13,740 nt of DNA from a virus (taxonomy: Duplodnaviria; Heunggongvirae; Uroviricota; Caudoviricetes). The notes beneath the pieces were generated by a model that did no database searches, was not told the DNA's origin, and worked only from the letters and a program-made list of their open reading frames with translations. How positions within the stretch are numbered: position 1 is the stretch's first letter; each line of letters starts with the position of its first letter. Below, in pieces: positions 946 through 13,740 of this stretch. The position numbers and the translations under genes are program-made. The stretch is from IMG/VR virus record IMGVR_UViG_2695420746_000009, positions 1 to 13,740 of that record; one strand, written 5' to 3'.

Positions 946-2022
946 TTACTCAAATAACTTTTTCACTTCATCAACTGTCTGAAGATAACGTTCGCTCTCA
1001 ATCTCAATACCTATTGCCTGACGTCCTAACTTCAGCGCAGCTTTAATAGTTGAGCCTGATCCCATAAAGAAATCGGCAACGATATCTCCGGGGCGTGAAC
1101 TACTCTTTATAATATGTTCCATCATCGCTGCAGGTTTTTCACATGGGTGCTTGCCAGGATAATATTGCACAGGAGGAAACTCCCATACATCGGTATAAGG
1201 TACATCAGCAGTAACATGAAATGGACGGCGTAAATTTTCATACTGAGTCTTCAAATCATCATACTGCTTCTTTACTTCCTCATAATGCAATTTCAGATCG
1301 CTATAACGCTTTTCATGTTCTGAATAATCAACATTAAAAGGATATGGACACGGGACACCGAGTGAATCTGCCTTCCTGCGAAATAATTCGCATAGTTTAT
1401 TAAAATCAATTAATGATGGAAGCCGCCACTGCGAATAAGAAAACCAGTGTGAACACATCTGCTTTCCTGTCGCTGAATTAATGTCTGCGGCTGATATATC
1501 TAACTGACGGCGAGCCAGCGAAAAAGCATCAATTAGTGGAGAAAATATATTTTTTCTTAAATCTGCACATTTTGAAGCATAACCTGACTGACCTTTAGCA
1601 TAACCTGACGCGCCGTAATGCTCTGCAAATAATATTCTTTCAGTAGCAGGAAAATAAGCCCTTAAACTTTCTTTATGACAACCGCGCCACATACCACTGG
1701 GTTTAGCCCAAATGATATGGTTCAGAACATTGAAACGGTCGCGAGTTAATAATTCAATTTTTGACGCAAGGCGAGAGCCGGTAAACATATACAGGCTGCC
1801 ATTAGGGGCCAATATCCGCCAAAATTCTGCCAAAAATTCGTCAATCCACCCCAAAAAGTCAGCATCGCTATCCCACTGGTTATCCCATGCGTTAGCCTTT
1901 ACGCCGAAGTATGGTGGGTCTGTTGCAATCAAATTGACCGAGTTATCAGGGATGGTTTTGATAAATTGCAGAGAATCTGCGCAAACGAGTTGTGCGCCAT
2001 GAATATTAGTGGTTTTGAACAT
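946..2022 (-). CDS. DNA N6-adenine methyltransferase, beta class (orphan, phage late-region moron)
   Basis: Motif IV DPPY near the N-terminus (LIATDPPYFG) and motif I FxGxG near the C-terminus (DFFMGSGST), i.e. the beta-class order. A coiled-coil-like insert (KRYSDLKLHYEEVKKQYDDLKTQYENLRR) lies in the presumed target-recognition region. Start chosen at the ATG giving MFKTTNIHG; the ORF track extends to 2067. Neither start has a clear SD. Confidence 0.85.
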   Translation of the reverse strand: MFKTTNIHGAQLVCADSLQFIKTIPDNSVNLIATDPPYFGVKANAWDNQWDSDADFLGWIDEFLAEFWRILAPNGSLYMFTGSRLASKIELLTRDRFNVLNHIIWAKPSGMWRGCHKESLRAYFPATERILFAEHYGASGYAKGQSGYASKCADLRKNIFSPLIDAFSLARRQLDISAADINSATGKQMCSHWFSYSQWRLPSLIDFNKLCELFRRKADSLGVPCPYPFNVDYSEHEKRYSDLKLHYEEVKKQYDDLKTQYENLRRPFHVTADVPYTDVWEFPPVQYYPGKHPCEKPAAMMEHIIKSSSRPGDIVADFFMGSGSTIKAALKLGRQAIGIEIESERYLQTVDEVKKLFE

Positions 2023-2157
2023 AGCTATTATTTTTTTGCCTGGGTAAGCTAACCCAGCGATGCGCATCGCGGGTGGGCTTTAGGTTCAGCCTATAGCTCT
2101 GGCATGGGTTGACCGCAGGACAAGCTGCAACTTGTCCTGCGCCCACTTTTCAGGCAC

Positions 2158-2530: not shown

Positions 2531-2752
2531 TCAATCTTGAAACTGGAAATCAACATCAGCCATAAAGCGGTTCAACTCAGCCAGTTTTGGCCCCATAGTC
2601 CCAATTAAGCGGCCAGCCAGTCGGTCTGTCAGGTTGGTACTGTTGAAACCATATTCCTTTTCGAAACGTTCAACCTTCTGCCACAACTCATACAATTCGT
2701 TAGCTATCTCCGCAACGTCGCCGCGCATTTTTTCGTTACCTTGATAATTCAT
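2531..2752 (-). CDS. Hypothetical small acidic protein
   Basis: 73 aa from the internal ATG (MNYQGNEK...), which has SD GAGGA 4 nt upstream. The ORF-track start at 2770 has no usable SD. Gap of 13 nt to the downstream HTH gene. Confidence 0.5.
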   Translation of the reverse strand: MNYQGNEKMRGDVAEIANELYELWQKVERFEKEYGFNSTNLTDRLAGRLIGTMGPKLAELNRFMADVDFQFQD

Positions 2753-2839
2753 AATATCCTCGAAATTCATATAGTTAGTGGGTTATCCCCCTCAACAACA
2801 CGAACTGTAACTCTGCCAAAAGAACACATCCAGTGTTAT

Positions 2840-2857
2840 TTTCACTTTTTAGTGAAA
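2840..2857. promoter_or_regulatory. Inverted repeat TTTCAC-N6-GTGAAA in the divergent promoter region (candidate operator for TA autoregulation)
   Basis: Read directly, about 60 bp upstream of the toxin start, between two divergent transcription units. Confidence 0.4.
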
Positions 2858-2915
2858 TTTTATATTTGCTTTGTTTTCTCGTTTTGGTGTATTTTGCGCG
2901 TTAGGAGGCTATAAT

Positions 2916-3227
2916 ATGTTTAACGTGATAACCCACCCTGCAGCACTGGATGAACTGCTTGAACTACCAGACGATCTGCGAGGTCGCATGACCAGGCTAA
3001 TTGAACGACTGGAGAAAGAGGGAAACAAACTTAAGATGCCCCATAGCCGTGTAATAGGCGGAGGACTCTTTGAACTAAGAGTAGGGGATAAAAACATCGC
3101 AAGAACGCTATACGCCTACGCGACTGGTAACGAAATTTATCTATTGCATGCATTTGTAAAAAAGACACAGAAAACACCAGTAAAGGCTATAGAAATCGCC
3201 AGAACTCGCCTGAAGGAGATGAACTGA
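2916..3227 (+). CDS. Type II toxin, RelE/ParE superfamily, HigB/Gp49-like (addiction module killer protein)
   Basis: 103 aa from the ATG with SD AGGAGG 7 nt upstream. Family-typical motifs LFELR, LLHAF and KKTQKTP. Stop overlaps the start of the downstream HTH gene by 1 nt. The ORF-track start at 2871 is over-extended. Confidence 0.8.
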   Translation: MFNVITHPAALDELLELPDDLRGRMTRLIERLEKEGNKLKMPHSRVIGGGLFELRVGDKNIARTLYAYATGNEIYLLHAFVKKTQKTPVKAIEIARTRLKEMN

Positions 3228-3514
3228 TGAAAGCAAAAGGCATCCCGTTTAACGAAGTAAAGGAAAAACTACTCAACACTCCAGAAGCTATCAAAGGATA
3301 TGAAGAGGCCGATAAAGAACTGGAGATGGTCGAAATGTTATACGAAATGAGGGAAAGAGCAGGTTTAACGAAGTCAGCTCTGGCAGAACGAATGGGATTG
3401 CGCCCGTCCGCCATCAGCCGCCTGGAAAGCAATCCTTTAGGGGCAAGCATGAAAACTTTATCAAAATATGCCCAAGCATGTGGCGCAACAATTAATATTA
3501 ATGCCGTCTATTGA
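3227..3514 (+). CDS. HTH (XRE-family) antitoxin, HigA-like antidote protein
   Basis: 95 aa. Classic HTH LTKSALAERMGLRPSAISRLE. Translationally coupled to the upstream toxin in toxin-first (HigBA-type) order. Confidence 0.8.
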   Translation: MKAKGIPFNEVKEKLLNTPEAIKGYEEADKELEMVEMLYEMRERAGLTKSALAERMGLRPSAISRLESNPLGASMKTLSKYAQACGATININAVY

Positions 3515-3531
3515 TTAATCACTTTTCACTA

Positions 3532-3551
3532 CCCCGTCCAGAAGGGCGGGG
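3532..3551. terminator. Hairpin between convergent genes (possible bidirectional terminator)
   Basis: CCCCGTCC-AGAA-GGGCGGGG, an 8-bp stem with one G-U pair. Lies between the antitoxin stop (3514) and the stop of the convergent ORF (3558). Flanking U-tracts are poor. Confidence 0.4.
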
Positions 3552-3557
3552 TGTGTA

Positions 3558-3776
3558 TCAATGATGTAAACACTCCACAGCAATCGCTTGTTGGCAATTC
3601 TGAGCAATCTCCCGCGACATACTAACAAGCCGTGAAATCTCGCCAAGATGCAAGCTAGCTTCGGGAGAAGCCAGAGCAACGCTAACCAGATCCAAAACGG
3701 CGTCGATGTCTTTTAGGTTTGATCCGAGTTCTTCAAGAGTTGATACAGATGCTTCAGTCATTGAATCTAATACCAT
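3558..3776 (-). CDS. Hypothetical small acidic protein; candidate LexA-regulated gene
   Basis: 72 aa, rich in D/E. No recognisable SD in front of the ATG. A consensus-like LexA box lies 23 nt upstream. Coding status uncertain. Confidence 0.4.
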   Translation of the reverse strand: MVLDSMTEASVSTLEELGSNLKDIDAVLDLVSVALASPEASLHLGEISRLVSMSREIAQNCQQAIAVECLHH

Positions 3777-3798
3777 TTAATTAAAAAAGGTTATTTGA

Positions 3799-3818
3799 TA
3801 CTGTATAAAATTACAGGG
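3799..3818. promoter_or_regulatory. Candidate LexA (SOS) box
   Basis: TACTGTATAAAATTACAGGG: CTGT-N8-ACAG with an AT-rich spacer, 16 of 20 matches to TACTGTATATATATACAGTA. Overlaps a possible -10 (TACAGT on the minus strand) for the 3558-3776 ORF. It is the only CTGT-N8-ACAG found in the intergenic regions inspected. Confidence 0.55.
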
Positions 3819-4017
3819 TAAAACTCAAATTTTATAGCCAACTTTCAATGGATTAACAGGGTTAATAGCTTTGTAGTCCGATACTTATGTTCTCTTCCTA
3901 CGCCTCACTCAACCACCTACAGAAGCCCATCATCACCATAAGAAAAACTCTTTTCGCTTCGTTTTCTCATCATTTCAAAAACTATGCCTTTTTGTTTATT
4001 TATCATTCCGTGACCAG

Positions 4018-4344
4018 TCACACTTTGAGCACAAGTTTCAGCCTCGTAGTTGTAAGGTGACATGAGCCTTCACCATCAAAAATACATTCTGAAACAGGCA
4101 TTTTCTGACCACATCGCGGGCAAGTAGTAGATAGCTGCTTCTGCAGCTCCTTATAGTTTTTCCTGATCAGCAGACCGATGACTTCATTCTCTGAATATGG
4201 AACTCGTCCCGGTCTACGCAATACACAAATTTCCCCCAACATACGTAGCTCGTCAGGTTCCAGAATCCAGTCCCGTCTTGATGTGCCTTCCTTCTTCAAC
4301 CGTTCCCTGCGTCTCCTTTGCCGTTCTGCAGCTGTCAGCGCCAT
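4018..4344 (-). CDS. Hypothetical protein with arginine-rich N-terminus and C-terminal Cys cluster
   Basis: 108 aa. SD AGGAGG 4 nt upstream. N-terminus AERQRRRRERLKK; Cys cluster CPRCG...C...C. Last gene of the minus-strand operon. Confidence 0.6.
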   Translation of the reverse strand: MALTAAERQRRRRERLKKEGTSRRDWILEPDELRMLGEICVLRRPGRVPYSENEVIGLLIRKNYKELQKQLSTTCPRCGQKMPVSECIFDGEGSCHLTTTRLKLVLKV

Positions 4345-4359
4345 AAATCCTCCTGAAAA

Positions 4360-5034
4360 TTACTTAACCCAATTAACTACACCGCCAGCGGCCACAACCG
4401 CTTTTTCACAGTCACGCTCATATCTCAAAGGTTGAAATACACCATCAATAAAATATTTATCTCCACCACATGCTGCAGGAAGTGAAACAGAAAACTGAAT
4501 ATGACCATCCGGAGTTACCGGAGAGTTGCCAGCCTCATACGCTACCCTTATCCAGTGCATAAGCATTTCTGTACTTACACATCCACAATCAACATCAATT
4601 TTGTCATGCTGCTGTTCCAGCCATTGCTCAAAAGTTAACTTGTAAGTTTGGCTTATAGGTTTGGCTTCCAGTTCTGCTATGTGATTTTTGGCTGATTCCA
4701 ACTCAATCGACAATTTTTCCAACTGCTCTTTATGCTTCTTGTATTCCTGATATGCGTGCCAAGACTGACCTTTGCGCACACTATCCGTGATATCAGTAAT
4801 CTGTTCTGGTGTTAGCGTGGTCAGTGGCTGTGCTGGGAAAATCAGCACTTTCCCGGAATCCCAATCAAAACCAGCGTGAATTGACTGAACCTCAACTGAA
4901 GGTGTTGAACCAATGCTGCCAGGCGAATGAACAACGATCGTTACATCCATATCGCGACGATCGCTGTGGTTGTTGGACAAAATACGATTCAACAAAATAC
5001 GATTCACCAACTCAGAAAATTTAGAAAATTTCAT
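4360..5034 (-). CDS. Hypothetical protein with central coiled-coil
   Basis: 224 aa. ATG overlaps the upstream gene stop (ATGA). Coiled-coil-like region KKHKEQLEKLSIELESAKNHIAELEAK. Contains an in-frame 15-bp tandem duplication near the 5' end. Confidence 0.65.
   Translation of the reverse strand: MKFSKFSELVNRILLNRILSNNHSDRRDMDVTIVVHSPGSIGSTPSVEVQSIHAGFDWDSGKVLIFPAQPLTTLTPEQITDITDSVRKGQSWHAYQEYKKHKEQLEKLSIELESAKNHIAELEAKPISQTYKLTFEQWLEQQHDKIDVDCGCVSTEMLMHWIRVAYEAGNSPVTPDGHIQFSVSLPAACGGDKYFIDGVFQPLRYERDCEKAVVAAGGVVNWVK
4977..5006. repeat. Perfect tandem duplication of 15 bp (ACAAAATACGATTCA x2), in frame inside CDS 4360-5034
   Basis: Read directly. Encodes the repeated NRIL(L/S) unit in the N-terminus. 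Confidence 0.8.
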
Positions 5035-5321
5035 GCTGATTCACCTTTCTCTGCTCTCTCCTGTCGGAACATCACTATCATCAGGTCGCCTTTTGTCGCT
5101 ATCTTGGCTGTTGTGCCTGGCTCAATGCGGCTAAGTTCAAATGCGTCATAGAACGCCTCCAACGCTTTCTGGCGTTTTTCCTGTTTGCGGCGCTTTCCCC
5201 ACTGCTTTAGAAAAACAGAGGCCGCCCACTTCCCCGCACTGAACATGATGTAAAACCAACCGAGAAGTGCCAGACCGGTATTTAGGGCCGTATCGATCGT
5301 TATCGTGGTGTCGATATTCAC
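5031..5321 (-). CDS. Small membrane protein (one predicted TM segment), GTG start
   Basis: 96 aa from GTG at 5321, which is preceded by SD AGGAGG at 7-nt spacing and overlaps the upstream stop (TAGTG). TM-like segment GLALLGWFYIMFSAGKWAASVFL followed by a basic stretch. The ORF-track start at 5399 would overlap the upstream gene by 79 nt. Confidence 0.55.
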   Translation of the reverse strand: MNIDTTITIDTALNTGLALLGWFYIMFSAGKWAASVFLKQWGKRRKQEKRQKALEAFYDAFELSRIEPGTTAKIATKGDLMIVMFRQERAEKGESA

Positions 5322-5740
5322 TACGCCACCTCCTGAAAATTTCCCTGATAAAACGCCAACACACGCTGCATAACTTCGCTCTTCCGACAATCGTGACAAA
5401 TCATGTTCAAGCGCCTGTCGTAACGACGTATTTCTCCATCAGGTAATGACCAGATAAGGTCAGGATCAACAACTACCGATTTCTTCGGCTTTACTCTTGA
5501 TAGCTTTTTGCGGGCGTTTTGCCAGTCCTTGCGCGCTTGTGCAGACAGAAATATCCCGGAGCCAGAGATATACAAATCACCACTGGTGGCAAGCTCTCTG
5601 GATAAACGATTAACAGCACATCGGCTAATACTAATTTCATCTGCCAGTTGCCTAACCGTTCCTCGCCCATTCAGGCGCACGAGTTCCACAATTTGTTTCT
5701 TCAGTTCTTCACGCTGTTCTGGTGTAAAAACTTTTGCCAT
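5321..5740 (-). CDS. HTH-containing DNA-binding protein, function unknown
   Basis: 139 aa. SD GGAGA 6 nt upstream. ATG overlaps the exonuclease stop (TAATG). HTH-like stretch VRQLADEISISRCAVNRLSREL. Confidence 0.7.
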   Translation of the reverse strand: MAKVFTPEQREELKKQIVELVRLNGRGTVRQLADEISISRCAVNRLSRELATSGDLYISGSGIFLSAQARKDWQNARKKLSRVKPKKSVVVDPDLIWSLPDGEIRRYDRRLNMICHDCRKSEVMQRVLAFYQGNFQEVA

Positions 5741-6339
5741 TACGATTCTCCTTTCCCTTTTATGAGACGGGAGAAAATTGCGGATACATACTTAGCCTGA
5801 TGAATAGCATCAGCTAGGGCATGGTGTCGTTCGCCATCAAATGGCATATCTTTTTTAGAATTGAAACCAATAAACTGACCAAGATTAACGATTGTTCGAA
5901 CATCCTGATCATTAAAATATTCCCACGGACAGGCTAAGCCAACGCGCTCATAAGCACCGCGTAAAATTACATTGTCGAATGTTGCTCCATTTCCCCATAC
6001 TTTCAATTTTTTTAAATTACATGCATGGCAAGTAATAAAGTGTGATAATTCAAAAAGTGCATCCTTAATATCAAGGGCATCATTAGTACAAATTGCGGCT
6101 CTGGCTTCCTTGCTCTGTTTCAACCACCATAAAATGGTATCACCATCGGCGACACCACCATTCAACATCGAGCTTCTGAGATTCACTGGCACATAAAAAG
6201 TAGGACCTAATTCCTCACTTTCTGGAGAAAAAAACACTGCCCCGATAGAAACAATTGGAGCACATGTGTTAGTACCCATTGTTTCAAGGTCAATCATTAC
6301 ATCAGACCGTTTCCTGTCGTAAATAATCTGATTAGTCAC
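5740..6339 (-). CDS. DEDDh-family 3'-5' exonuclease (DnaQ-like fold)
   Basis: 199 aa. Exo I motif MIDLETMG (D-x-E), Exo II GNGATFDNVIL, Exo III HHALADAIHQAKY (H-x4-D with Tyr). GTG start with SD GAGGAG 8 nt upstream. Confidence 0.75.
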   Translation of the reverse strand: MTNQIIYDRKRSDVMIDLETMGTNTCAPIVSIGAVFFSPESEELGPTFYVPVNLRSSMLNGGVADGDTILWWLKQSKEARAAICTNDALDIKDALFELSHFITCHACNLKKLKVWGNGATFDNVILRGAYERVGLACPWEYFNDQDVRTIVNLGQFIGFNSKKDMPFDGERHHALADAIHQAKYVSAIFSRLIKGKGES

Positions 6340-6362
6340 GAATAATTCTCCTCAACGTTTAT

Positions 6363-6566
6363 CTATACCCAAATTTTCTGTTGATATGTTCTGGATGGTT
6401 TTGGCGTTCTTTCTGATTCAGGTAAATGAACATAAACGCAATATCCATCACCTAAAAAATCAGAACGAACAACCAGAACTTTCTTACCACGCCGCCGATA
6501 AGTATCTGAAAGACGCTCTGCTTCATCATGCGTCATCGGCCCCTGCTTAAATGGCGTTATTTTCAT
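6363..6566 (-). CDS. Hypothetical small basic protein
   Basis: 67 aa from the ATG (MKITPFKQ...). The 18-bp palindrome lies 6 nt upstream of the start; no clear SD. The ORF-track start at 6590 is a GTG inside the palindrome. Confidence 0.5.
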   Translation of the reverse strand: MKITPFKQGPMTHDEAERLSDTYRRRGKKVLVVRSDFLGDGYCVYVHLPESERTPKPSRTYQQKIWV

Positions 6567-6867
6567 TTTCTTGTGCGACCGCGGTCGCACCCTCGCTGAT
6601 TTCCAAGTAACGCTTAATCCAAAGATTTTCTATATGCTTATTACCTGGCTGATTTGATAAATACCAATCGGCAATTACAGACTGCTTATTACTATCTGGT
6701 CGTGTCCTGTAACCACAAGTTGGACACCAGATAACATATTCATTTCTTACCCCCGAATACCTTAATTCTGGCTTCGACGGTTTCCTGAACATAACTTGTT
6801 TACAAAGGCAGAATGGCACTTCCTGCCCGATGGCGTTTGATGATTTCACTGCGCTTCTCCGCCGCAT
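6547..6867 (-). CDS. Hypothetical protein with Cys pairs (CxC ... CPxCG), possible zinc ribbon
   Basis: 106 aa as given in the ORF track; start uncertain (no SD at either candidate ATG, and it overlaps the upstream gene by 68 nt if full length). Cys pattern CLC ... CPTCG. Confidence 0.4.
   Translation of the reverse strand: MRRRSAVKSSNAIGQEVPFCLCKQVMFRKPSKPELRYSGVRNEYVIWCPTCGYRTRPDSNKQSVIADWYLSNQPGNKHIENLWIKRYLEISEGATAVAQENENNAI
6573..6590. repeat. Perfect 18-bp palindrome GTGCGACCGCGGTCGCAC; copy 2 of TGCGACC-NN-GGTCGCA motif
   Basis: Read directly. Lies within the 3' end of ORF 6547-6867 (encoding ATAVAQ) and immediately upstream of the start of the 6363-6566 gene. Confidence 0.5.
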
Positions 6868-8539: not shown

Positions 8540-8654
8540 AGGAAGCAGCCACAGTAACGCGACGGATTCCGTCAATTCAAGATGCGTTTATTGTGGCTGC
8601 TCCTGCGGATTTTTTCAACCCGAAAAAACATAATTCGCATGGAATGGCTAAAAA

Positions 8655-11600
8655 ATGACATTAAACGATTTCTATGCGGATCGCTTTGGCAGCGATCCGT
8701 TCTCGCTAATTGAAGCAGCACGGGATGAACTAACCGAGCTGGCACAGATGGCTGGTATCAACTGGCCTGCCTGTTCCGACAACATCCAACTCAACCCTCG
8801 CGGGGGAGTTGAGCGTTACTCTTCATACAATAAAACATCTCCAGAAGCTCTCGAAAAGAGCCTGAAAGGACGCGTAGAAATTTACTCCCGGCTGGAACAC
8901 AGCAAAGGGATTGATTACCCGTTCATTAACTTCGTCCATAAAGGCAGCGATGCTGGCTCATGGAGCGGTTTCTCCTTCCTGTTTTCTGAATATCGCCGTG
9001 AGCAACAACGGAATAATGCGACCGTGGTCGCACAACCGGAAGAAGAACGGGAAAGAATAGAACGTCAGGCCGAAGCACGTCGTCGCCGTGAAGAACAAAA
9101 ACGAATTAATGACCTGAAAAACAACCAAATGGACCATGAACGTTTGCTGGGATGGCTGGCATTCCACAGCGCGTGGGAACATGCTCCGGCTGAAGACGGC
9201 TCATGGCCATATGCGATTAAAAAAGGTATTCGTGACGTTTTTAGTTCATGTGATGTGCGTCGCGTGACCAGTCACGACAGTGCGAAATGGAGCCGGGGGC
9301 CAACCACATATATGGCTATCCCTCTGGCTCACCTGGACGGTCGTTACGATGGTCGTATTGTGGGTTGGCAGCGAATCGACAAACAAGGTGGGAAATACCA
9401 GACCAGCGCAGTAACCAGCGGCGATTTCGTCGGTGCCTGCTTTGTTATCGGTGAGCTGAAAGGGGCGCAAAACATCGCTGTTACAGAAGGTTTTGCTACT
9501 GGTGCATCCATCTGGCTTGCCACGAAAAAAGATAAACGCTTTGACGCTGTGGTTGTCGCTGTATCCGCTAACAACATGGTTCATGTTGTGGAACAACTGG
9601 TAAACATGTACCCAGCGGCAAAAATCACCTGCGCACTGGATAATGACCGGAAATCTGCCACAGAAGGAAAAGGGAATACCGGCCTGCGGACTGGCTATGA
9701 AATCTTATCGAAATTCAACGATGTCCGCTGCGTCTATCCAACTTTTGAAGACGATCCGCAAATGGAGTGCAGTGACTTCAACGACCTGCACAAACTACGT
9801 GGACTTCGTGAAACCGCACGTCAACTATTTACAACAGCAAACCGCCTGAAAACCGGTACTGATTTGCTATCTCTGACGCTCAACCGCCTGAAGACAATTA
9901 AGCGGGATAACCGTCGTACTTTTGCCAAAGAGCTGCTGAGAGCGGTGGATATTGGCATGCTAACCTGTCCAGTTCCTAACAGTCCGTCAGATTTATTTAA
10001 CATGTTCTGCATCGTTCTGCGTGAAATGGGACTGGAAAATATCTATCGCGCTACGGTAAAAGACCACATTGCCCGTCGCCTGAATAAAAAGTGCCGTATT
10101 GCCCAGGCTCCGCGCTCTTTCAGCGAACGCATAACTGATCCCAATAAACGCCCTCAACATATCACCTATAAGCGTTTTGAAACTTCGGTAATGACCGATG
10201 ATGTCCTGAAGTACGTGCAATCACTACAAGGGATAGTCATCGTCCGTGCTGGTATGGGTTCCGGCAAATCTACAGGATTGTTACGACCATTAATGCATAG
10301 CTCAGAACGTGGTATCTCTGTTGCTCACCGTGTCTCCCTTATTGGTGGCCTGTGGGAAATGATGACAGAAGGAAAAGGTGTAAAAGCCGATATCCTGCAC
10401 TATCAGGACCCTGGCTATCAGGAAATGGCTCCATACGCCAGTAAACTGACCATCTGCATAAACTCGATTGTCAAAAACTGCTGGCAACCGTTGATGCGCC
10501 AGCACGACTATTTTGGCTTTGACGAGGCCACACAAGGGCTACGTGCCGTTCTTTCCGGTCGGGCTATGGAAAACCCGGTGGCTGTATTCAATACGCTAAT
10601 TGACGCGCTGGCCAGAACGGAACAACACCCAATCATGGTGGATGCTGATGCGAACGATCTGCTGGTTGACCTAGCTGAACTGGCTATGAAACGCCGTGAA
10701 GAACTAGGTTTACCGGCATGGCTGCAGATCCACGTAATTGAATTACCTGTTGATGTTCGCAACCGCGAAACAGGTGAGCCAATCCGGGTTTTTTATACAG
10801 AAAAAGATCGCATCATGACCGAGGTGGTGAAAGCTGTATCGGATGGCGAAAAAATCATGTTGGCCACCGACAGCTCCACCTTTGCAGAAGATGTGACAGC
10901 CACCCTGAGAATGCATTTTCCTGGTAAGAAATTTCTGTGTGTAAACCAGAAAAACAAACCAGAGCCAGAAGTTGAAGCATTTACCAATCAACCGAAAAAG
11001 ATGGTCAAAAAATACGACGGCCTGATTTATAGCCCGTCTATTTCATCCGGCGTGTCGATTGAGCAAAAACATTTTGACCGTCATTTCGGCATGTTCTGTG
11101 GTGAAGTTGTACCCAGCGACGCAGTGCAAATGCTACGCCGCGACCGTACAGCAAAAGAATTTATTATCGGCTTTGATAAAGCTCGTGCAAAACGTGAAAC
11201 TGACCCGCAAAAAATAGAACGAGCATTCGCCCAGGCATTGCTTGCTACCGCAGGTATGAACGGTGAACTGACGGATGTTGTTTTCGATGGCGACCGTATA
11301 TCAATGGGGGTGGCCAATACCGACTTTACCAGGATGAAAATTAAAGCAGCCGCAATTGAAGCGACTGCGCGTAACGACTACGCCAGCAACATGATCTGCA
11401 TCATGCACAGCGACGGTTATAAGGTATCGCCGCTGGCCACCGATTATGCTGCGAATGATATCGGTAAAGATCTGCGTAAAGAAGCGCGGGATATTGTGTG
11501 GGAACAGACACTGGATCTGCACCTCAATACAGAAACTCCACAAGAATCAGAGCGTGAAGAACTGCTAAAAAAACGCGCGCTGACGCTTGAAGAACAGGCA

Positions 11601-12698
11601 AAACTTGTCCGCTGGGATATTGAAAACGAACTGAAACTACCGGTTGAAGAAGGCACGCTGAAATTCTATTTCGATGGTGCTCGAGACAAAGTTCGCCGCT
11701 ATGAAACAATGCTTTTAGATGAGGTAACAGCTCGTCGTTACGACCGGGAAGAAGCAGCCATCAATTTTACCTACGCATACCGTCAGGCGGGACAGTGGCA
11801 ATATTTTGTAGTGACCGCGATGACTCGCGAGCAGGCTGATGATGTCTTTAAAACTAAATTCCCTGGAATAATCGATCACAAGGTAAAAGCTACTCCTACT
11901 GTTGAAGTCGGGGCGCGCGGTTTCTATGCGCTTAAATCAGCAACTCTCCGGCAGTACTTTATCGACTGCGGTATCAACCCTGAGACTATGACCGGCGAGG
12001 CGACTCAGGAGCGTCTCAAATTTGCTCGAGATAACCTCATGACAGCCGAACGCCGTGACCTGTTGAATAACGTTCTGCACATTGGTGGTTTTATGACGCC
12101 AAAAGGGAAGCCTAAAGTGCCGGAAGCGTTGTTTAAAAACATTTGCGACTCTCTTGGCCTTAAAACAGGTAAACGTCGCGGCAGAGACGGCGATAAGCGT
12201 CCAACCTTGCGTTTTGTTGAGCCTGAATCAGCGGCATTTATGCTGGATATTCTTGCTCAGCGTCAGAAAGATGGCCTAACCCTGAAAACGCGTAAAGCCG
12301 AGAAGACCGCCATCGAAATGGATCGCGATTTGGATCTCAATATATATATGGATGATAAAACGCGATCCACAAACGAGCAGGTTCAAAACGCCCCTCATTC
12401 AGTAATTTCTGAGGCTTTGGCTGTGTTGCCAGTGGTTGTACCTGAGTCCTGGGCGATGAGTGCGCTTTCCGGTGAGGAGCTGGCCACTATGTCATCATGG
12501 TCATCAGCCAGCATAGCTATGACGTTTGCATCTCTGTACCTCACAGAGTTCATGGATCACTTATCCAGCAATGAACTGCGGCGGTTACGTGAATACATTA
12601 CCGGGAATAGCTGGATTTGCCCCTATATTTCCAGACATCTGTTATCACTTAACCCATTACAAGCCCGCTGCCGCAGATATTCCCGTGGCGAGCGATAA
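8655..12698 (+). CDS. Large multidomain replication initiator (primase-helicase, N15 RepA-like); 3' end disrupted by IS2
   Basis: 1347 codons as an ORF. Toprim-like motifs ([12 protein letters not shown] and CALDNDR) around aa 280-330, Walker A GMGSGKST around aa 535, Walker B-like FGFDEAT, then a roughly 700-aa C-terminal region. Native sequence ends at 12611 (1319 codons); codons 1320-1347 are read from the IS2 terminal inverted repeat. Weak SD. Confidence 0.8.
9017..9034. repeat. Palindrome TGCGACC-GT-GGTCGCA; copy 3 of the motif, inside the repA-like coding sequence
   Basis: Read directly. Encodes ATVVAQ in a charged linker ([21 protein letters not shown]), in the same codon phase as copy 2 (ATAVAQ). 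Confidence 0.5.
12320..12368. other. Candidate origin-like element inside the 3' part of the repA-like gene
   Basis: 8-bp inverted repeats GGATCGCG / CGCGATCC flank ATTTGGATCTCAATATATATATGGATGATAAAA, which includes an (AT)5 run and three GATC sites within 49 bp. Confidence 0.3.
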
Positions 12699-13528
12699 CC
12701 CAGCGCACTATGCGGATGCCATTCGTTATAATGCTCGAACGCCTCTGCAAGGTTCTTTGCTGCCGTTAACCCGTCTGGTTTGGGCATGATACTGATGTAG
12801 TCACGCTTTATCGTTTTCACGAAGCTCTCTGCTATTCCGTTACTCTCCGGACTCCGCACCGCCGTGTTCTTCGGTTCAAGTCCCAACATCCGGGCGAACT
12901 GGCGTGTTTCATTAGCCCGGTAGCATGAACCATTATCCGTCAGCCACTCCACTGGAGACGACGGAAGATCGTTGCCGAAGCGGCGTTCCACCGCTCCCAG
13001 CATGACGTCCTGTACTGTTTCACTGTTGAAGCCGCCGGTAGTCACCGCCCAGTGCAGTGCCTCACGATCACAGCAGTCCAGCGCGAACGTGACACGCAGT
13101 CTCTCTCCGTTATCACAGCAGAACTCGAACCCGTCAGAGCACCATCGCTGATTGCTTTCTTTCACGGCCACTCTGCCTGTATGTGCCCGTTTCGATGGCG
13201 GTACAGCAGGTTTTCGCTCAAGCAACAGCGCATTCTGGCGCATGATCCGGTAAACACGTTTGGCATTGATCGCAGGCATACCATCAAGTTCTGCCTGTCT
13301 GCGAAGCAGCGCCCATACCCGACGATAACCATACGTGGGCAGCTCTCCGATAACATGGTGTATACGGAGAAGCACATCCGTATCATCAGTGTGACGACTG
13401 CGGCGGCCATCCATCCAGTCATCGGTTCGTCTGAGAATGACGTGCAACTGCGCACGCGACACCCGGAGACAACGGCTGACTAAGCTTACTCCCCATCCCC
13501 GGGCAATAAGGGCGCGTGCGCTATCCAC
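12623..13528 (-). CDS. insD: IS2 transposase OrfB (InsD), normally expressed as an OrfAB fusion by -1 frameshift
   Basis: 301 aa beginning [23 protein letters not shown] and ending SDNRCLEI, matching IS2 InsD from memory. DDE-type integrase core. Confidence 0.9.
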
Positions 13529-13740
13529 TTTTTTGCCCGTCCATATTCAACGGCTTCTTTGAGGAGTTCATTTTCCATCGTTTTCTTGCCGAGCAGGCGC
13601 TGGAGTTCTTTAATCTGCTTCATGGCGGCAGCAAGTTCAGAGGCAGGAACAACCTGTTCTCCGGCGGCGACAGCAGTAAGACTTCCTTCCTGGTATTGCT
13701 TACGCCAGAGAAATAACTGGCTGGCTGCTACACCATGTTG
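13486..13740 (-). CDS. insC: IS2 OrfA (InsC), C-terminal part (5' end beyond the window)
   Basis: Reverse strand reads ...[20 protein letters not shown] ... [24 protein letters not shown], then a stop. Overlaps the insD start region, which contains the slippery AAAAAAG. Confidence 0.85.

What the first reader, a model, noticed from the sequence alone, without database searches (positions are those of the whole stretch)
12320..12368. Origin-like core inside the 3' part of repA: inverted repeats flanking an (AT)5 run with clustered GATC sites
GGATCGCG ... CGCGATCC flank a 33-bp AT-rich segment containing ATATATATAT and three GATC sites within 49 bp. N15 ori was reported to lie inside the 3' region of repA, and clustered Dam sites with an AT-rich unwinding element are typical of origins. 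The site is about 250 bp upstream of the IS2 junction.
Basis: inference. Interest (0 to 1): 0.45.

Follow-up and report, generated by a model that had tools for sequence, protein, structure and literature searches.

The report
Replication origin core inside repA
A 51-bp palindromic, AT-centred, GATC-studded stretch inside the replication gene of an N15-like phage-plasmid matches the position of the repeats annotated in phage N15's repA, is conserved as DNA rather than as protein, and is most likely the already known type of replication origin.

Summary
GGATCGCG (12320-27) and CGCGATCC (12361-68) flank (AT)5 (12340-49), with GATC at 12321, 12333 and 12364. The repeat is longer than reported: 13-nt arms, 12/13 complementary.

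The window is an N15-like phage-plasmid. The element lies at RepA aa 1223-1238, exactly where GenBank U63085 (N15 repA) annotates three repeats.

Across 27 lineages (27-100% aa identity in the 3' region) the DNA is conserved while the peptide is not:
- It has the highest synonymous-codon identity in the 4-kb gene (0.90 vs 0.52).
- Third-codon-position information is 1.0 bit against a mean of 0.41.
- GATC density is 63/kb against 2.2/kb in the rest.
- The two outer GATCs sit 43 bp apart in 23 of 27 lineages.
- The arms keep complementarity through compensatory changes (85% strict Watson-Crick, no strand bias).
- It is the least stable duplex in repA.

No promoter, terminator, Rfam family or DnaA box explains it.

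This is a new member of the known intragenic N15/PY54-type origin. RepA most likely binds the dyad arms and melts the AT centre. The invariant GATCs suggest Dam/SeqA control, which is inferred and untested. IS2 lies 243 bp downstream and leaves the core intact. Interest is modest.

The parts
8655..12611 (+). repA (N15-type primase-helicase initiator, CyRepA1 family), native part. The ORF runs on to 12698 through IS2 sequence, which replaces the last 12 native residues with 28 IS2-encoded ones.
   Evidence: ORF list. Pfam Toprim at aa 274-383 and Herpes_ori_bp at aa 522-674. NCBIfam CyRepA1 at aa 525-1034. C-terminus compared with relatives. 96-99.8% nt identity to PhiR46_1 and to E. coli plasmids.
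12319..12331 (.). Left arm of the dyad, TGGATCGCGATTT, containing the invariant outer GATC (12321-12324).
   Evidence: Inverted repeat I1. GATC present at this column in 25 of 27 lineages. Compensatory covariation with the right arm. Homologous to N15 repeat_region L001 3399-3409.
12331..12343 (.). Degenerate third copy of the arm motif, TGGATCTCAATAT, containing the inner left GATC (12333-12336).
   Evidence: Motif search, 3 mismatches. An inner-left GATC at this column or one base later in 16 of 27 lineages. Homologous to N15 repeat_region L001 3411-3421.
12337..12356 (.). AT-rich centre of the dyad, including (AT)5 at 12340-12349; presumed unwinding element. It contains GATG at 12351-54, which is the inner right GATC in sister clades.
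   Evidence: The least stable 20-, 30- and 40-bp duplexes of the whole repA start at 12339, 12328 and 12321. Centre ATATA(T/G)ATAT is conserved, with the rare ATA codon in 19 of 27 lineages. Inner right GATC present in 48ST307-like and PY54-like lineages.
12357..12369 (.). Right arm of the dyad, AAAACGCGATCCA, containing the invariant outer GATC (12364-12367).
   Evidence: Inverted repeat I1. GATC present at this column in 25 of 27 lineages, always encoded as NGA+TCN using the rare codons CGA or GGA. Overlaps the position of N15 repeat_region L001 3450-3460.
12612..13740 (-). IS2 (partial, runs off the window end), inserted 243 bp downstream of the dyad. It is context rather than part of the origin.
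   Evidence: 99.4-99.8% identity to annotated IS2 copies from position 12610/12611 onward.

Best explanation
Window 12319-12369 is the core of the plasmid-prophage replication origin (N15/PY54 type), embedded in the coding sequence of its own initiator gene repA.

Anatomy (shown): two 13-nt arms in inverted orientation, each anchored by a GATC, flank a 25-nt AT-rich centre that is the easiest place in repA to melt. A further GATC-bearing half-site lies just inside the left arm.

Proposed mechanism (inferred):
1. RepA is a Toprim primase fused to an SF2 helicase of the UL9/CyRepA1 kind. It binds the two arms as a symmetric complex.
2. The AT centre opens, possibly helped by cruciform extrusion.
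3. RepA's helicase is loaded in both directions and its primase starts both leading strands. This gives the bidirectional replication reported for N15.
4. The invariant GATCs, spaced 12, 31 and 43 bp apart (about 1, 3 and 4 helical turns), are most simply read as Dam methylation sites. After initiation they would be hemimethylated and bound by SeqA, delaying re-initiation and so holding the low copy number. This step has about 0.4 confidence. Alternatively the GATCs are simply the invariant core of the RepA recognition site.

The peptide encoded here (aa 1223-1238) is a poorly conserved segment whose sequence is dictated by the DNA element rather than the reverse.
For: Position:
- The element aligns base for base with the three repeat_regions annotated in N15 repA record U63085.

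DNA-level constraint:
- It has the highest synonymous-codon identity of any 15-codon window in the 4-kb gene (0.90 against 0.52 overall, 12 full-length genes).
- Third-position information content is 1.0 bit against a mean of 0.41, while positions 1 and 2 are below the gene average (0.86 against 1.05).
- GATC density is 63/kb in the 57-nt core against 2.2/kb in the rest, over 27 lineages.
- The outer GATC span is 43 bp in 23 of 27 lineages.
- The GATCs are built from GAT+Cnn (coding Pro, His, Arg or Leu) and from the rare codons GGA/CGA followed by TCN.

Dyad:
- 75.8% of cells are paired against 30-46% in slid registers. The covariation score is 0.37 against 0.08-0.18, and 0 of 500 shuffles reach it.
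- The outer arm is 85% strictly Watson-Crick. G.T (12) and A.C (10) mismatches are balanced, which indicates a duplex-level symmetry rather than a one-strand RNA structure.

Unwinding: it is the least stable duplex in repA.

Specificity:
- The arm motif occurs nowhere else in the window.
- There is no sigma-70-like promoter, no terminator at the site, no credible Rfam match, and no DnaA box within 180 bp.

Initiator: RepA carries Toprim, UL9-like helicase and CyRepA1 domains.

SeqA: it prefers GATC pairs on the same helical face at variable spacing (PMC2691817).
Against: - No experiment exists for this clade.
- The papers that mapped the N15 and PY54 minimal origins (Mardanov & Ravin 2006; Ziegelin et al. 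2005; Ravin et al. 2003) are not held in the library. Their coordinates could not be compared, so the link rests on the GenBank repeat annotation, on conservation, and on my recollection of their abstracts.
- In this single sequence the inverted repeat and the GATC triple are only weakly improbable.
- Cumulative GC skew in N15 follows gene orientation and gives no origin signal.
- The element's own methylase belongs to PF01555, not the D12 Dam family, so it gives no support for a self-encoded GATC methylase.
- All hosts found belong to gammaproteobacterial groups (Enterobacterales, Orbales) that, to my knowledge, carry Dam. No Dam-free host was available to separate methylation from RepA recognition of GATC.
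- If the minimal origin extends more than 240 bp downstream, IS2 would truncate it.
Confidence: 0.8

Rival explanations
1. The dyad is a conserved cis-regulatory site in repA, but not the place where the duplex opens. It could be a RepA or SeqA/Dam-dependent copy-control, handcuffing or incompatibility site, with initiation occurring at another point in the 3' part of repA.
For: Conservation and dyad symmetry show that a protein-binding or structural site exists, but not that unwinding happens there. The GATC invariance fits a control site as well as it fits an origin.
Against: The centre of the dyad is the least stable duplex in the gene. No other part of the 3' kilobase shows third-position constraint. 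The N15 record marks these very repeats. The arm motif is not repeated elsewhere, as a handcuffing or titration site usually would be.
Confidence: 0.12
2. It is a target for site-specific recombination or some other DNA transaction, such as dimer resolution or a nuclease/packaging signal. Inverted binding sites around a central spacer also describe recombinase core sites.
For: Inverted arms with an AT-rich spacer, and strong DNA-level conservation.
Against: The 25-nt spacer is far longer than the 6-8 nt of tyrosine-recombinase cores. No recombinase gene is adjacent in any relative; the neighbours are small ORFs and the protelomerase, whose telRL target is annotated elsewhere in N15 (24775-24830). 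Linear hairpin plasmids resolve their dimers at the telomeres.
Confidence: 0.03
3. It acts as an RNA hairpin in the repA mRNA, for example as a processing, pausing or attenuation signal.
For: The single strand folds into a hairpin better than shuffled sequence does: z = -3.4 in the window, and between -2 and -6.5 in most lineages.
Against: G.T and A.C mismatches in the arms are balanced (12 against 10), so neither strand is favoured. An RNA hairpin does not require invariant GATC at fixed spacing or an AT-rich loop. There is no U-tract, and no Rfam family beyond a chance miRNA-like score of E = 0.53.
Confidence: 0.03
4. It is a coincidence, or the conservation reflects protein-coding constraint alone.
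For: Single-sequence statistics are weak.
Against: The peptide varies ([49 protein letters not shown]) while the GATCs, the AT centre and the dyad persist. Third-position conservation exceeds that of positions 1 and 2 here. The rare codons CGA, GGA and ATA are fixed.
Confidence: 0.01

Closest known systems
[quoted passage not shown] Repeats are annotated in GenBank U63085. Functional mapping by Ravin et al. 2003 and Mardanov & Ravin 2006 is cited from memory; the papers were not readable here.
   Same: Same gene, same codon positions (N15 AF064539 30144-30192 corresponds to window 12320-12368). Same plan: two GATC-bearing repeats on the left, an AT-rich centre, and an inverted GATC-bearing repeat on the right. 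Same 43-bp outer GATC span.
   Different: - RepA is only about 56% identical in this region.
- The arms are complementary over 12/13 positions here, against about 7-9/13 in the N15 clade.
- The centre is (AT)5 here instead of ATATAGATAT.
- Origin function has not been tested in this clade.
- repA here is fused to IS2 at its last 12 codons.
ori of Yersinia phage PY54. From my memory of the abstract of Ziegelin et al. 2005 (J Bacteriol 187:3445), it is a 212-bp origin in the 3' portion of repA, with structural elements conserved with N15 and phiKO2.
   Same: Homologous position. Four GATCs spaced 13, 18 and 12 bp apart, with a 43-bp outer span. Centre ATATAGATAT. Arms complementary.
   Different: About 37% aa identity. 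The arm sequence is different (GATCTAACTTG / CAAGTTGGATC). The inner right GATC is retained in PY54 and lost in the window.
Herpes simplex virus oriS with the UL9 origin-binding helicase (established knowledge).
   Same: It works alike. Inverted initiator-binding sites flank an AT-rich centre inside a palindrome, and an SF2 helicase-initiator opens it. RepA matches Pfam Herpes_ori_bp (PF02399) over its helicase motifs.
   Different: There is no sequence relation between the origins. The Pfam match covers only helicase motifs (profile positions 46-198 of 820), not UL9's DNA-binding domain. HSV oriS has no GATC or methylation component. UL9 has no primase domain.
GATC-rich unwinding regions of E. 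coli oriC and the P1 plasmid origin, controlled by Dam and SeqA (established knowledge; SeqA spacing from PMC2691817).
   Same: Clustered GATCs lie in and next to the AT-rich region that melts. Spacings are close to whole helical turns, which suits SeqA.
   Different: Those origins depend on DnaA boxes (and, for P1, RepA iterons) and have tandem rather than dyad repeats. There is no DnaA box here. Methylation dependence is untested.
Satellite phage P4 ori/crr with the alpha primase-helicase (from memory).
   Same: A single multidomain primase-helicase-initiator recognises short repeats in both orientations and needs no host DnaA.
   Different: The repeats are different and lack GATC, there are two separate cis regions, and the helicase family differs. 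This comparison was not tested here.

Membership tests
Intragenic origin of N15/PY54-type telomere phage-plasmids | Lies inside the 3' part of the gene for the N15-type RepA (Toprim plus SF2 helicase, CyRepA1 family). | tested here: met
   The element is at aa 1223-1238 of the 1347-aa ORF. Domains; homology to N15 gp37, phiKO2 gp35 and PY54 RepA.
Intragenic origin of N15/PY54-type telomere phage-plasmids | Positional homology to the repeats marked in the N15 repA record. | tested here: met
   U63085 repeat_regions L001 3399-3409, 3411-3421 and 3450-3460 correspond to window 12314-24, 12326-36 and 12365-75.
Intragenic origin of N15/PY54-type telomere phage-plasmids | Conserved structural elements: inverted repeats flanking an AT-rich segment. 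| tested here: met
   Present in all 27 lineages, with compensatory changes. The centre is the least stable duplex in repA.
Intragenic origin of N15/PY54-type telomere phage-plasmids | Falls inside the experimentally defined minimal origin of N15 or PY54. | not testable with these tools
   The primary papers are not held. Only the statement that initiation occurs within repA could be cited (PMC2847241).
Intragenic origin of N15/PY54-type telomere phage-plasmids | Supports RepA-dependent replication in cis. | not testable with these tools
   Needs a two-plasmid origin assay.
Intragenic origin of N15/PY54-type telomere phage-plasmids | The replicon carries a protelomerase and hairpin telomeres. 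| tested here: inconclusive
   The window ends in IS2 before the position where telN lies in relatives. PhiR46_1-type relatives, YDC107_1, N15, PY54 and most other loci have a protelomerase 1-3 kb beyond repA.
Dam/SeqA-controlled origin (oriC or P1 oriR kind) | Cluster of GATC sites in or next to the unwinding region, conserved among relatives. | tested here: met
   63 against 2.2 GATC per kb. Two columns are occupied in 25 of 27 lineages, and the sites are kept through amino-acid changes.
Dam/SeqA-controlled origin (oriC or P1 oriR kind) | GATC spacing compatible with SeqA binding (same helical face). | tested here: inconclusive
   Spacings of 12, 31 and 43 bp equal 1.1, 3.0 and 4.1 turns, and SeqA prefers same-face pairs (PMC2691817). 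Other lineages have spacings of 6 and 18 bp, which are not in phase.
Dam/SeqA-controlled origin (oriC or P1 oriR kind) | Initiation or copy number depends on Dam methylation or SeqA. | not testable with these tools
   No data were found. The window's own methylase belongs to PF01555 and its specificity is unknown.
DnaA-dependent origin | DnaA boxes (TTWTNCACA) near the unwinding element. | tested here: not met
   No match with one mismatch or fewer between 12139 and 12612. The total count in the window equals chance (31 against 31.4).
Intrinsic terminator or structured RNA | GC-rich stem followed by a U-tract, or a match to an Rfam family. | tested here: not met
   No terminator at the site. 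Only a chance match, E = 0.53 at 19.9 bits against a gathering score of 95. No strand bias in wobble pairs.

The most novel reading that the evidence does not exclude
The four symmetric GATCs, with the outer pair fixed at 43 bp, would be a methylation-read licensing device common to all CyRepA1-type telomere phage-plasmids. The origin would fire only when fully methylated and would be sequestered by host SeqA when hemimethylated. That would tie a RepA-only, DnaA-independent linear replicon to the host cell cycle. On this reading the dyad has been maintained by compensatory evolution inside an open reading frame, in lineages down to about 27% RepA identity, with the encoded peptide acting as a passenger of the DNA signal.
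Probability: 0.35. Interest if true: 0.5.

Novelty: new member of a known kind. Interest (0 to 1): 0.3.

Why it matters
It pins the likely origin of a common group of E. coli and Klebsiella N15-like phage-plasmids to a 51-bp core. These elements are frequent in clinical isolates: 222 plasmid records matched.

It shows that the origin survives an IS2 insertion only 243 bp away.

It gives a clear example of a cis-acting DNA element overriding protein-coding constraint. The amino acids change only among those whose codons keep GATC and the dyad.

The universal GATC pattern offers a simple, testable hypothesis for how these low-copy linear plasmids avoid over-initiation.

For engineering of N15-derived linear vectors (pJAZZ type), it indicates which synonymous recoding of repA must be avoided.

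Tried and rejected
Literature. Eight full-text searches and about 16 look-ups were made. The papers that mapped the N15 and PY54 origins, the phiKO2 genome paper and Ravin's reviews are not held. Secondary papers give no coordinates.

Promoter hypothesis. No sigma-70-like site was found in 12100-12650.

Terminator or RNA hypothesis. Rejected.

DnaA boxes. None near the element.

Extra copies of the arm motif (iteron or handcuffing sites elsewhere). None in the window.

GC skew as an independent origin marker. In N15 the cumulative skew follows gene orientation, with its minimum at the cB/cro divergence, 10.0 kb from telL, whereas the dyad is at 5.4 kb. It is uninformative.

Self-encoded Dam. 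The window's methylase belongs to PF01555, not the D12 class, so the idea of the element methylating its own origin is unsupported.

Structure of the RepA C-terminal region. The homologue search returned only 5 fragmentary proteins, and a profile search of the PDB found nothing. No structure prediction was attempted, because the alignment would have been too shallow.

Source record with the same IS2 junction. None in the phage, plasmid or E. coli genome collections.

An early impression of mine that the PY54 right-hand site is in direct rather than inverted orientation was wrong. Arm-by-arm comparison shows the dyad is kept there too.

Full report
**1. What is in the sequence**

Reading 12100-12800 confirms every detail of the finding. 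GGATCGCG is at 12320-27 and CGCGATCC at 12361-68. ATATATATAT is at 12340-49. GATC occurs at 12321, 12333 and 12364.

The repeat finder shows that the inverted repeat is longer than reported. The arms are TGGATCGCGATTT (12319-31) and AAAACGCGATCCA (12357-69), 12 of 13 complementary, with 25 nt between them. A degenerate third copy of the arm motif, TGGATCTCAATAT, lies at 12331-43.

The 33 nt between the octamers are 79% A+T, against 51% for the gene. The least stable 20-, 30- and 40-bp duplexes of the whole repA start at 12339, 12328 and 12321.

On this sequence alone the case is weak. An inverted repeat of this quality appears in 14.5% of dinucleotide shuffles, and a GATC triple within 47 bp in 29%. 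GATC is nonetheless under-represented in the window (36 against 51 expected), and this is the only such cluster.

**2. Context**

The window is part of an N15-like phage-plasmid. It is 96% identical over 12.6 kb to Escherichia phage PhiR46_1 and 99.8% identical in repA to E. coli plasmid NZ_LR883007.

The 8655-12698 ORF is RepA. It carries a Toprim domain at aa 274-383, an SF2 helicase region matching Pfam Herpes_ori_bp at aa 522-674, and NCBIfam CyRepA1 at aa 525-1034. The element encodes aa 1223-1238, outside any recognised domain.

IS2 joins at 12611/12612. It replaces only the last 12 residues of RepA with 28 IS2-encoded ones, 243 bp beyond the right arm. No record in the three collections shares this junction.

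**3. Link to the known origin**

GenBank U63085 (N15 repA) annotates three 11-bp repeat_regions, two direct and one inverted. Their sequences are CGAAGTGGATC, CGATTTGGATC and the complement of ATCCAAAACAG. They align without gaps to window 12314-24, 12326-36 and 12365-75.

In the complete N15 genome the homologous dyad is at 30144-30192, 5.37 kb from the telL cut. It is the only place in 46 kb with three GATCs within 47 bp.

From my memory of the abstracts, Ziegelin et al. 2005 placed a 212-bp PY54 origin in the 3' portion of repA, with elements conserved in N15 and phiKO2. Mardanov & Ravin 2006 did likewise for N15. Those papers could not be opened, so the published coordinates were not compared.

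**4. Conservation beyond coding constraint**

I collected repA 3' ends from phages, plasmids, genomes and IMG/VR contigs. This gave 73 distinct sequences, which fall into 27 lineages below 88% nt identity and span 27-100% aa identity to the window.

- In a codon alignment of 12 full-length genes, synonymous-codon identity is 0.52 overall. It peaks at 0.90 in window 12339-12374, the highest of all 15-codon windows in the 4-kb gene.
- In the 27 lineages, third-position information content peaks at 12312-12368 (1.0 bit against a mean of 0.41). Positions 1 and 2 are below average there (0.86 against 1.05).
- The peptide differs between clades: [49 protein letters not shown]. The DNA plan persists.
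- GATC density is 63/kb in the 57-nt core against 2.2/kb in the rest. The columns of 12321 and 12364 carry GATC in 25 of 27 lineages. The other two lineages have it displaced by indels, with a 46-bp span.
- The left GATC is always GAT followed by a codon starting with C (coding Pro, His, Arg or Leu). The right one is GGA, CGA or AGA followed by TCN, using codons that make up only 7-13% of their families elsewhere in the gene.
- Typical spacings are 12-18-13 or 13-18-12 (four sites), 6-31-6, and 12-31 in the window. The window has lost the inner right site (GATG at 12351-54).

**5. The dyad is selected**

On an ungapped alignment of 24 lineages (A2), the 21 symmetric pairs around position 12344 are 75.8% paired, against 30-46% in slid registers. 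The covariation score is 0.37 against 0.08-0.18, and none of 500 shuffles reaches it. Fifteen pairs show changes on both sides.

Counting strict Watson-Crick pairs only, the outer arm (12320-31 with 12357-68) is 85% complementary. Arm sequences as different as TGGATCGCGATTT, TGATCCAGATCTTT, TGATCCAGCTTTT and GATCTAACTTG are each matched by their partner.

G.T and A.C mismatches are balanced (12 against 10). The symmetry therefore belongs to the duplex, or to both strands equally, and not to the mRNA. The single strands can form hairpins, with z between -3 and -6.5 in most lineages. Cruciform extrusion is therefore possible, but it has not been shown.

**6. Alternatives examined**

- No sigma-70-like promoter and no terminator at the site.
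- No Rfam family.
- No DnaA box within 180 bp, and no enrichment in the window.
- No further copies of the arm motif.
- The 25-nt spacer and the absence of a neighbouring recombinase argue against a recombination core.
- GC skew in N15 follows transcription and is uninformative.
- The window's methylase (946-2067, minus strand) belongs to PF01555, not the D12 Dam class, so a self-encoded GATC methylase is not supported.

**7. Mechanism**

Shown:
- a conserved, symmetric, GATC-anchored dyad around the most meltable segment of repA;
- its location at the N15-annotated repeats;
- its position inside the gene of a primase-helicase initiator.

Inferred: RepA binds the arms symmetrically, opens the AT centre, loads its helicase in both directions and primes. 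The logic resembles HSV oriS with UL9. RepA shares helicase motifs with UL9, but no demonstrable homology in the DNA-binding part.

Inferred with less confidence (about 0.4): the invariant GATCs are Dam sites read by SeqA after initiation. Spacings of 12, 31 and 43 bp are near whole helical turns, and SeqA prefers same-face pairs (PMC2691817). This would limit re-initiation. The GATCs could instead be the invariant core of the RepA site. No Dam-free host was available to separate the two readings.

**8. Verdict**

This is a new member, in an untested clade, of the known intragenic origin of N15/PY54-type telomere phage-plasmids.

Three points may go beyond what is known: the breadth of the GATC invariance, the fixed 43-bp span, and the compensatory evolution of the arms inside an ORF. 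I could not check these against the 2005-2006 papers. Interest is modest (0.3).

Noticed in passing
window 9015-9032: A 16-bp palindrome, TGCGACCGTGGTCGCA, lies inside the 5' part of repA and shows raised synonymous conservation (0.73). PY54 has TGGGACCACGGTCCCA and the Orbaceae plasmid has GAGACCACGGTCTC at the same place, so the palindrome is kept by compensatory changes. The phiKO2 record annotates the homologous site as a putative plasmid partitioning site, so this is probably a SopB/ParB centromere embedded in the coding sequence.
   Followed up: partly
window 9261-9279: A second intragenic palindrome, CGTGACCAGTCACG, has high synonymous conservation (0.79, the third-highest peak in repA). 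It is present in the window, N15 and phiKO2 clades. The five codons carrying it are absent in PY54, P840 and the Orbaceae plasmid. Its function is unknown.
   Followed up: partly
window 12611-13740: IS2 is inserted 12 codons before the native repA stop, creating a RepA with 28 IS2-encoded C-terminal residues. No record in the phage, plasmid or complete E. coli genome collections has this junction. Whether the replicon is still functional is open.
   Followed up: partly
window 8545-8600: This is the only other inverted repeat in the window with 13-nt arms at 12/13 or better (30-nt loop). It lies just upstream of the repA start, where N15 has a terminator and the CB repressor operators.
   Followed up: no
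window 946-2067 (minus strand): The gene annotated 'DNA adenine methylase' in PhiR46_1 is a PF01555 (N6_N4_Mtase) enzyme, not a D12-class Dam. Its target sequence is unknown.
   Followed up: partly
window 2871-3514 (compare NZ_LR883007 26899-27497): A RelE/ParE-type toxin with an HTH antitoxin is annotated in the closest plasmid at the position of the window ORFs 2871-3227 and 3227-3514.
   Followed up: no
L018 (NZ_BMZO01000013.1, 'Limoniibacter endophyticus'): A 52-kb contig assigned to 'Limoniibacter endophyticus' (to my knowledge an alphaproteobacterium) carries a repA 3' region about 80% identical in protein to the window's and grouping with the Klebsiella phage 48ST307 lineage. It is probably a contaminant contig.
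   Followed up: no
L094 (NZ_LR883007.1) 40047-46243: The 'circular' assembly of the closest plasmid contains an inverted duplication around the protelomerase region and many frameshifted genes. This looks like a long-read fold-back through a hairpin telomere rather than the true structure.
   Followed up: no
L095 (ENA metagenome scaffold) 2613-6612: In two metagenome contigs repA is called as two ORFs (1110 aa and 203 aa). The second is 100% identical to the window over the stretch it covers (57% of the 337-aa query). This is either a sequencing frameshift or a natural split upstream of the origin.
   Followed up: no
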